Positions 10,655-12,227 of a DNA stretch of 64,000 bases are shown piece after piece (the stretch's first letter is position 1; each line of letters opens with the position of its first letter). A program made the position numbers and the translations under genes. The notes below the pieces were generated by a model. It did no database searches and was not told the DNA's origin. It saw nothing but the letters and a program-made list of their open reading frames with translations. This stretch comes from the human T2T-CHM13v2.0 reference genome, Homo sapiens. Location: assembly GCF_009914755.1 (NCBI RefSeq), contig NC_060926.1; one strand, 5' to 3'.

Positions 10655-10903
10655 CTAATAACAAGACAGATGTGTAAATGCAATTTAATCTGAATTTAAA
10701 AATCCAATAAATGTATTATTTACTTTCAAAAATGTAAAGCCAAGGGCCCATGAAACTTTAACAAAAAATCTCAATTTATATGAAAATACGACTATGATTA
10801 ATGTTACAATTTAAGCAATAATTATGCCTACCCAGAAGTATAAATTGCTTCATCATCAATGTTTTTTACTCCTAATAAATGTCTCCCACATACACTACTT
10901 CTT

Positions 10904-11222
10904 TTTCTTTCTTTTTTTTTTTTTTTTTTTTTTTTTTTGAGATGGAGTTTTGCTCTTGTTGCCCAGGCTGGAGTGCAGTGGAGCGATCTTGGCTCACTGC
11001 AACCTCTGCTTCCCAAGTTCAAGCGATTCTCCTACCTCAGCCTCCCATGTAGCTGGGATTCCAGGTGCATGCCACTACGCCTGGCTAATTTTTTGTATTT
11101 TTAGTAGAGGCAGGGTTTCACCATGTTGGCCAGGCTGGTGTTGAACTCCTGACTTCAGGTGATCCACCCGCCTCAGCCTCCCAAAGGGTTGGGATTACAG
11201 ATGTGAGCCACCGCGCCCGGCC
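10904..11222 (-). mobile_element. AluS
   Basis: Full dimer; TSD acatacacta(c/t)ttctt at 10888-10903 and 11224-11239. Confidence 0.95.
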
Positions 11223-12227
11223 AACATACACTATTTCTTCTACTATGATCTCCATCTCTGTCTTGATCACTCCCAAAAGGAATTTGTAATTACTACACAC
11301 AGTTAGCATTAGTATGTTTTTTCTGAGTCACTTGGTTATGATTTTATTTTCTGCCAAGGGTTTCAAATATTACAATTCTCAAGACTCCAAAGGAAAAATA
11401 CAAATCTGATCTCTTATTCAGTTCCTCATAGCCCTGCTTTTCCTTTCTAACTCAACCTCACTTGTCATGTTTTCCCTCCTATCAGCTTGTCATGCACTAC
11501 TATTTGCTACGGTTCAGGGGAAAGCAAGTTAAGGGGGAAGTGGTTGGGAAAGTAATGAAGTGAATTTGGGAACCATGGGCAACCTGATTTGAGTCCAGAT
11601 TACCCTGCTACAGGGTATTCACAATAAGAATATCCTTATGATTTCTGCACTGTAATAAGCTGATTAGCTGGGTATGGCTTCTGGCAAAGGTCAAACCTGA
11701 TGGTGTTTTATACTGAAAATGGACACTGTTAAAGACAAGGGGAAAGGGAGGCTGCTCTGAGACTATTAGTGCAGAGAGTAATTAAGTCTAAAATTAATAA
11801 ACTGTGTTTCATTCAACCTAAAATGCTACTGAGTGTTAGACTTACTATTTTCTGTACCAGTGCCAGCTATAACTGCAGAACGTCCCTGACTGTAAGATGC
11901 AACCTAATCTCACAGATGTAAAAATGTGAGAAAAAGAAGGTGTATCTTAGAACTTAGGAAATATAGTGGTTGAAAGTGGTGGCCACTCAGCATCAAAGAT
12001 TCCTTTTAACCACAAAATCTTCACAGAAAAAGAAACATAAATATGCTTTGGCATAATATTTTATATTTAAACATCTAGAACTATAAGGATATATTCCTAA
12101 AATAAAATGTATGATTTAAGAAAAAACTTTTAGAGAAAAACAATATTACTGGAGTAGCTAAGGTACTAGTTATAATTCTGGTTATGGAAGGGTTGATTTT
12201 GTTTTGAAACAGGTGACCTTATTTTAC

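What the first reader, a model, noticed from the sequence alone, without database searches (positions are those of the whole stretch)
10881..11294. Decayed tandem duplicate of the 87-nt exon, interrupted by an Alu
Seen: removing the Alu and one TSD copy joins 10882-10887 to 11224-11262, giving 45 nt that align ungapped at 37/45 with real exon sequence 10569-10613. Minus-strand translation [15 protein letters not shown] versus TEMEIVVEETISVRD; a GSD remnant (gggagtgat) lies just upstream but out of frame. Several differences are synonymous (GAA>GAG twice) or conservative (V/I). The donor position reads att instead of gta; an AG preceded by ctaac survives at 11293-11294. Inference: fossil of a duplicated, perhaps once mutually exclusive, exon that evolved under coding constraint before being lost.
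Basis: partly seen in the sequence, partly recalled or inferred. Interest (0 to 1): 0.7.

Follow-up and report, generated by a model that had tools for sequence, protein, structure and literature searches.

The report
Dead partial USP40 exon copy, Alu-split
An intron of the human USP40 gene holds a broken partial copy of the neighbouring exon with an Alu element inserted in it; it is most likely an ordinary dead duplicate that was already decaying when the Alu arrived, not the fossil of a working alternative exon.

Summary
With the Alu and one 16-nt target-site copy removed, 45 nt match exon 10568-10654 at 37/45; score 66 against at most 41 in 1000 shuffles. The case for past coding constraint is weak. 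The 'conservative' V/I differences are changes in the live exon: other primates keep the copy's residues. Two of the copy's three own changes (T>I, S>Y) hit columns invariant in 29 of 29 placental versions. Both target-site copies share them, so decay preceded the Alu. The synonymous share fits a neutral copy beside a constrained exon (P=0.18) and matches a dead chr8 copy of the neighbouring exon (73/89; Fisher P=1.0). No copy-type exon occurs in 117 placental and 103 reptile/bird protein entries carrying this exon; no named marsupial was sampled and orthologous introns could not be read. Against my reading: similarity stops at the exon's 3' end, and a weak upstream alignment might indicate an older full duplication. 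Verdict: an ordinary pseudogenic exon; about 24% chance it once worked.

The parts
10568..10654 (-). Live 87-nt USP40 exon (parent). Encodes the first 29 residues of the USP40 ubiquitin-like domain PF25822: two strands and the start of the helix.
   Evidence: AG/GT borders and open frame; Pfam 841-928 of P0006; model strands 259-267 and 272-281, helix from 286 in P0002 numbering
11224..11262 (-). Main piece of the decayed copy (matches 10575-10613); includes the upstream target-site copy 11224-11239
10881..10887 (-). 3' tail of the decayed copy beyond the Alu; followed by ATT where the live exon has its GT donor
   Evidence: donor score -6.0; only 0.1 even with G at +1
11263..11274 (-). GSD/Q remnant, separated from the core by 3-nt and 5-nt gaps; 5' limit of secure homology
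   Evidence: alignment
10888..10903 (-). Downstream target-site copy (15/16 identical to 11224-11239); shares four differences from the live exon with the upstream copy
10904..11223 (-). Full-length Alu with A-rich tail, same orientation as the gene; 8.2% from the local Alu majority; AluS-like by recalled diagnostic positions (not tested against a repeat library)
11293..11294 (-).
11275..11410 (-). Weak, gap-rich colinear similarity to 10644-10798 (upstream of and into the live exon); inconclusive

Best explanation
This is a broken copy of the 3' two-thirds of the USP40 87-nt exon, lying upstream of it in the intron and split by an Alu, and it likely never worked as an exon for long, if at all. 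Shown: homology covers about 57 nt of the copy (exon nt 22-86), with two small deletions, no usable donor and no credible in-frame acceptor. Shown: two changes at invariant residues sit in both target-site copies, so they are older than the Alu. Inferred: it arose by DNA-level local copying (a short templated insertion, or a small duplication whose 5' part was later lost) after the placental-type residues were fixed and before the Alu, then drifted neutrally at about 0.10-0.13 substitutions per site (95% range 0.04-0.25). Inferred: the Alu inserted into dead sequence and did not cause the loss. Inferred: no present function.
For: Copy-private changes T24I and S26Y hit columns invariant in 29 of 29 distinct placental versions; R28G is a residue absent from that column. 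S26 sits just before the helix in the model. Both target-site copies share T24I and S26Y and differ from each other at one base. Silent share fits a neutral copy plus a constrained exon, P=0.18-0.30. A dispersed chr8 copy of the neighbouring exon, with a dead donor, has the same identity (73/89) and third-position share (6 of 14 versus 5 of 10, Fisher P=1.0). No copy-type exon in 109 of 120 entries that carry the exon, nor in 8 placental and 103 reptile/bird entries. Copy residues T15, I20, D29 are the placental majority and rare or absent in 62 reptile/bird versions (3, 2 and 0). The conserved first seven codons are not significantly recognisable. Short local copies do arise in this gene: a 52-bp inverted copy and a 67-bp exon copy. 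No annotated transcript uses the region (gene table in the finding).
Against: Similarity ends within 1 nt of the exon's 3' border, as expected if only the exon had been conserved. The best local alignment of the spacer to the DNA upstream of the copy falls on the expected diagonal; anchored P was 0.006, 0.044, 0.01, 0.1 and 1.0 against shuffles and 0.075, 0.21, 0.082, 0.29 and 1.0 against 147 real intron stretches under five scoring schemes. If real, that flank is far more diverged than the core, which would point to an older duplication with a constrained core. Silent differences lean high (5 of 8). The chr8 control keeps its flanks; this copy does not. Counts are small. Protein clusters hide members, only 120 of 267 and 120 of 393 hits were listed, and no named marsupial or monotreme was among them. 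The direct search with the copy's frame was insensitive.
Confidence: 0.68

Rival explanations
1. An old tandem duplication of the whole exon with flanks was used for a time as a mutually exclusive alternative under coding constraint, then lost before the Alu inserted. A bolder form: the three gaps (10+3+5 = 18 nt) leave a stop-free 69-nt frame with a shortened loop.
For: Similarity stops at the exon's 3' end; weak colinear upstream similarity; 5 silent of 8 polarised differences; 69-nt open frame from the position aligned to the live acceptor; simulated flanks of 60-124 nt are often missed once total divergence reaches 0.5-0.7.
Against: No copy-type exon in 220 informative protein entries; private changes at invariant residues; 5' third unrecognisable although conserved in orthologues; donor scores 0.1 even with G restored; an in-frame gap sum without a stop is common by chance (about 1 in 4, my estimate); silent excess not significant.
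Confidence: 0.24
2. The copy is the by-product of retrotransposition: a long target-site duplication, as seen for exon 63269-63336, or a piece of spliced USP40 mRNA pasted back.
For: The same gene holds a 67-nt exact exon duplicate flanking a 1.5-kb repeat; the 3' end coincides with the exon border.
Against: No extension into the upstream exon (score 0) and only a score of 8 into the downstream exon; the 233-nt spacer matched only itself in the genome search (which skips very common words); the donor is not duplicated.
Confidence: 0.04
3. The copy or its Alu is used today as a rare cryptic exon or as a splicing regulator of the live exon.
For: An in-frame AG lies directly before the core (11262-11263); the Alu forms an inverted pair with the Alu at about 10076-10380 around the live exon (247/298).
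Against: That AG scores -6.2 and the donor -6.0; the frame runs into the Alu and stops; no annotated transcript has an exon here; the only USP40 rows among the 1,399 validated exons of PMC5740500 concern another exon.
Confidence: 0.03
4. Chance similarity.
For: Short, purine-rich match.
Against: 0 of 1000 shuffles reach 66 (max 41); still 58 versus max 43 of 100 with the Alu in place; the match resumes exactly across the target-site duplication.
Confidence: 0.01

Closest known systems
Pseudogenic exons (Morais and Harrison 2009, PMC2718932; abstract and first fifth read)
   Same: Exon copy in the gene's own milieu disabled by a frameshift; they count 377 in 284 human genes with decay-type substitution patterns.
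   Different: Partial (3' two-thirds) and split by an Alu whose target-site copies date the decay. USP40 was not found in the one 503-character supplement held, which cannot be their full list.
Unannotated intronic exon look-alikes (Ivanov and Pervouchine 2022, PMC9013439; parts 1-2 of 4 read)
   Same: Intronic target similar to an annotated exon of the same gene; they report 4,027 merged human intronic targets outside repeats.
   Different: Their tables are in an outside repository I could not see; whether this locus is listed is unknown.
Tandem duplicated exon substitutions / mutually exclusive exons (PMC5740500, PMC8373072, PMC9741552; passages and supplement searches only)
   Same: A homologous copy next to the parent exon on the same strand.
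   Different: Not intact, no splice sites, wrong length, no copy-type isoform found. The USP40 cluster in PMC5740500 is a different exon (63269-63336 and its copy).

Membership tests
Pseudogenic exon | Significant similarity to an exon of the surrounding gene | tested here: met
Pseudogenic exon | Coding ability compromised by a frameshift or premature stop | tested here: met
   net 8-nt loss between GSD and core; Alu insertion runs the frame into a stop
Pseudogenic exon | Substitution pattern of a decaying sequence | tested here: inconclusive
   compatible with neutrality (P=0.18; same as dead chr8 control) but only 8-10 differences
Mutually exclusive tandem duplicated exon (present-day) | Intact AG/GT sites and frame-preserving length | tested here: not met
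   donor ATT; 76 nt from the AG, opening on TAA
Mutually exclusive tandem duplicated exon (present-day) | Junction reads showing either/or inclusion | not testable with these tools
   no RNA-seq; not among the USP40 rows of PMC5740500's validated set
Mutually exclusive tandem duplicated exon (ancestral) | Both versions present as isoforms in other species | tested here: not met
   0 of 117 placental and 0 of 103 reptile/bird entries carrying the exon; cluster members hidden, no named marsupial
Mutually exclusive tandem duplicated exon (ancestral) | Intact copy in the orthologous intron of outgroups | not testable with these tools
   no vertebrate genome other than the window's own is held
Alu insertion by L1 machinery | Two-arm 7SL-derived body, A-rich tail, flanking target-site duplication | tested here: met

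The most novel reading that the evidence does not exclude
USP40 once had two interchangeable versions of the first hairpin of its ubiquitin-like domain: a duplicate that arose on the mammalian or placental stem, possibly read as a 69-nt exon with a shortened loop, was lost before the Alu arrived and may survive intact and unannotated in some non-simian mammals.
Probability: 0.15. Interest if true: 0.45.

Novelty: new member of a known kind. Interest (0 to 1): 0.14.

Why it matters
As found, little: hundreds to thousands of such intronic exon copies are reported in human genes (PMC2718932, PMC9013439). Its one neat feature is that the Alu's target-site duplication froze part of the copy and shows that decay came first. 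If the rival were true it would be a dated case of a lost mutually exclusive exon in a deubiquitinase's ubiquitin-like domain. USP40 has yielded at least three other small duplicates in or from this window (Noticed in passing); the 52-bp inverted repeat around the 54-nt exon may deserve more attention than this finding.

Tried and rejected
Alu as the cause of loss: rejected, since both target-site copies already carry T>I and S>Y. AG 11293-11294 as the old acceptor: unsupported. Downstream flank homology: none. Copy from spliced mRNA: no convincing extension into either neighbouring exon. Protein search with the copy's own frame (40 residues): 2 candidates, none at E<=10; uninformative, as ordinary USP40 proteins sharing nine residues were not even collected. 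Second copy of the exon inside distant homologues: none among the representatives whose context score passed 45. Other copies of the exon or spacer in the genome: only self. The chr8 locus as a record of the old intron or of the copy: alignments not significant (P 0.10-0.75). The published human-specific USP40 inversion (PMC2603318; one section and Table S1 read) is 15 kb long, so it is not the 0.8-kb Alu pair here. The USP40 cassette event in sarcopenia (PMC12881438; passages) is not tied to this exon in what I saw. The flank-against-flank alignment overlapped itself and was discarded; the chr8 codon table was out of register and was redone; the script stopped before its last row and its statistics were rerun. 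Literature searches gave no description of this copy. Supplement searches found no USP40 in PMC8373072 or PMC9741552; two large files of PMC5740500, possibly holding the full candidate list, could not be read.

Full report
Observation. The Alu lies in gene orientation with a 16-nt target-site duplication, 10888-10903 and 11224-11239, 15/16 identical. The exon scores 66 against the Alu-free intron; 1000 shuffles give mean 24 and max 41. Homology reaches back to the GSD codons at 11274 through gaps of 3 and 5 nt and ends at the exon's 3' border, where ATT stands in place of GT. A scan of the 20 annotated exons and two alternative exons against the window gave strong second matches only for this exon, for exon 63269-63336 and for the Alu-derived 7304-7401. 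The genome search found no other copy of the exon.

Splice signals. The AG at 11293-11294 is followed by TAA and would give 76 nt. On matrices built from the window's 20 exons it scores 0.6 (real acceptors -0.2 to 13.1); the donor position scores -6.0, and 0.1 if G is put at +1 (real donors -0.3 to 10.9). These matrices are a crude proxy. The best global alignment places the live acceptor against an AC at 11286-11287.

What the parent exon does. It encodes the first 29 residues of the Pfam USP40 ubiquitin-like domain: in the model, two strands and the start of the helix, with S26 directly before it.

Orthologues. One search listed 120 of 267 hits; 109 carry a single ungapped version of this exon (29 distinct), 11 lack it through truncation or skipping. 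One search used a query region outside the exon, to avoid bias against a variant, and listed 120 of 393; 112 not already examined gave 8 placental and 103 reptile/bird versions and one truncated entry. None has the copy's private residues, and a motif search over all stored proteins printed nothing. No named marsupial or monotreme was listed, clusters hide members, and only annotated proteins are seen. The copy has the placental majority residues T15, I20 and D29, found in 3, 2 and 0 of 62 reptile/bird versions, so it most likely arose on the mammalian side.

Polarising the differences. The 15-codon core differs at eight codons. Residue 20 is V in the human entries but I in chimpanzee, macaque, capuchin, mouse lemur and tarsier entries; residue 25 is V in lemur and capuchin entries, as in the copy (tarsier has I, so this one is less certain). 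The 'conservative' differences are thus mostly the live exon's own. The copy's private changes are T24I and S26Y, in columns invariant across 29 of 29 placental versions, and R28G. Five silent and three replacement differences give P=0.18 under a neutral copy and a constrained exon, and 0.10-0.13 substitutions per site per lineage (95% range 0.04-0.25). By recalled primate rates this spans the simian to the placental ancestor.

Timing from the Alu. The two target-site copies share four differences from the live exon, including those behind T24I and S26Y, and differ from each other at one base. The copy had already lost invariant residues when the Alu inserted. The Alu is 8.2% from the local majority and AluS-like by recalled diagnostic positions (about 35-45 million years, recalled).

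An internal control. The neighbouring 89-nt exon has a dispersed copy on G000:C8 with intron flanks and a dead donor. It is 73/89 identical, with 6 of 14 coding differences at third positions against 5 of 10 here (Fisher P=1.0). A copy presumed dead from the start thus looks just like this one in its substitutions.

What speaks against my reading. Unlike the chr8 copy, this one has no clear flanks. Simulated shared flanks of 60 nt would be found 95% of the time at total divergence 0.25 and 40% at 0.5; 124 nt 97% at 0.35 and 29% at 0.7. So either little flank was copied, or the duplication is much older than the core suggests. Downstream there is no signal. Upstream, the best local alignment lies on the expected diagonal over about 155 nt (score 29; 21% of shuffles reach it); anchored, P ranges from 0.006 to 1.0 against shuffles and from 0.075 to 1.0 against 147 real intron stretches, depending on scoring. 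This is inconclusive, and together with the ending at the exon border it keeps the once-functional reading alive at about a quarter. The aligned gaps sum to 18 nt and leave a stop-free 69-nt frame, which chance gives often.

Mechanism. Most likely (0.68) a local DNA-level copy of part of the exon that was never or only briefly spliced, drifted neutrally, and later received an Alu. The lesions and their order relative to the Alu are shown; the copying mechanism, age and lack of past function are inferred.

Comparison with what is known. It meets the definition of a pseudogenic exon in PMC2718932 (abstract and first fifth read) and fails the tests for a present-day mutually exclusive exon. In PMC5740500 (passages; supplement rows) the USP40 cluster is the other duplicate, at 63269-63336. 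Nine searches and supplement searches of PMC8373072, PMC9741552 and PMC2718932 found no description of this copy; two large files of PMC5740500 and the outside tables of PMC9013439 were not visible and may list it. The other papers in those listings were seen as titles and abstract openings only.

Verdict. Real, probably undescribed, and ordinary: a new member of a known kind, interest 0.14.

Noticed in passing
window 61688-61754 and 63264-63330 (- strand): 67-nt exact duplicate of most of exon 63269-63336 plus its donor, flanking a 1.5-kb repeat that reads as an antisense truncated L1 (family recalled): apparently an unusually long target-site duplication that copied an exon. The copy matches the 44-nt intronic mutually exclusive exon listed in PMC5740500 and overlaps the annotated exon 61693-61799; a search for this origin found no paper.
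   Followed up: partly
window 12326-12377 and 13160-13211: 52-bp inverted repeat, 51/52 identical, each arm lying just upstream of an acceptor and enclosing the in-frame 54-nt exon 13088-13141. Predicted to form one long stem in the pre-mRNA (z = -8.0). Annotated exon 13174-13198 lies in one arm. Only 3 of 231 protein entries skip the 54-nt exon, all non-primate.
   Followed up: partly
L009 1474-1633 (G000:C8:136244700-136244847) versus window 12203-12359: Dispersed, unspliced 84% copy of exon 12228-12316 with short intron flanks and GT>AT at the donor; it carries T at a column where simian entries have S, so it likely predates simians. It abuts an LTR-like stretch (family recalled as MLT1).
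   Followed up: yes
window about 10076-10380 (+) and 10904-11223 (-): Two Alus in inverted orientation (247/298 identical) flank the in-frame 87-nt exon and could pair around it; no human entry examined skips the exon, and this is not the published 15-kb USP40 inversion.
   Followed up: partly
window 10595-10597 (- strand): Exon residue 20 (about residue 861 of P0006) is V in the human entries but I in the other ape, monkey, tarsier and mouse lemur entries: a human-lineage change or variant.
   Followed up: partly
window 7304-7401: The annotated alternative exon matches an Alu (score 124 to 10234-10331), so it is Alu-derived.
   Followed up: no
window about 11889-11963: Short old repeat fragment with 78-81% matches on G000:C17 and C14.
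   Followed up: no
P0200, P0244: Short unnamed proteins that join this exon to its neighbours with many changes; they look like decayed processed USP40 copies in other species.
   Followed up: no
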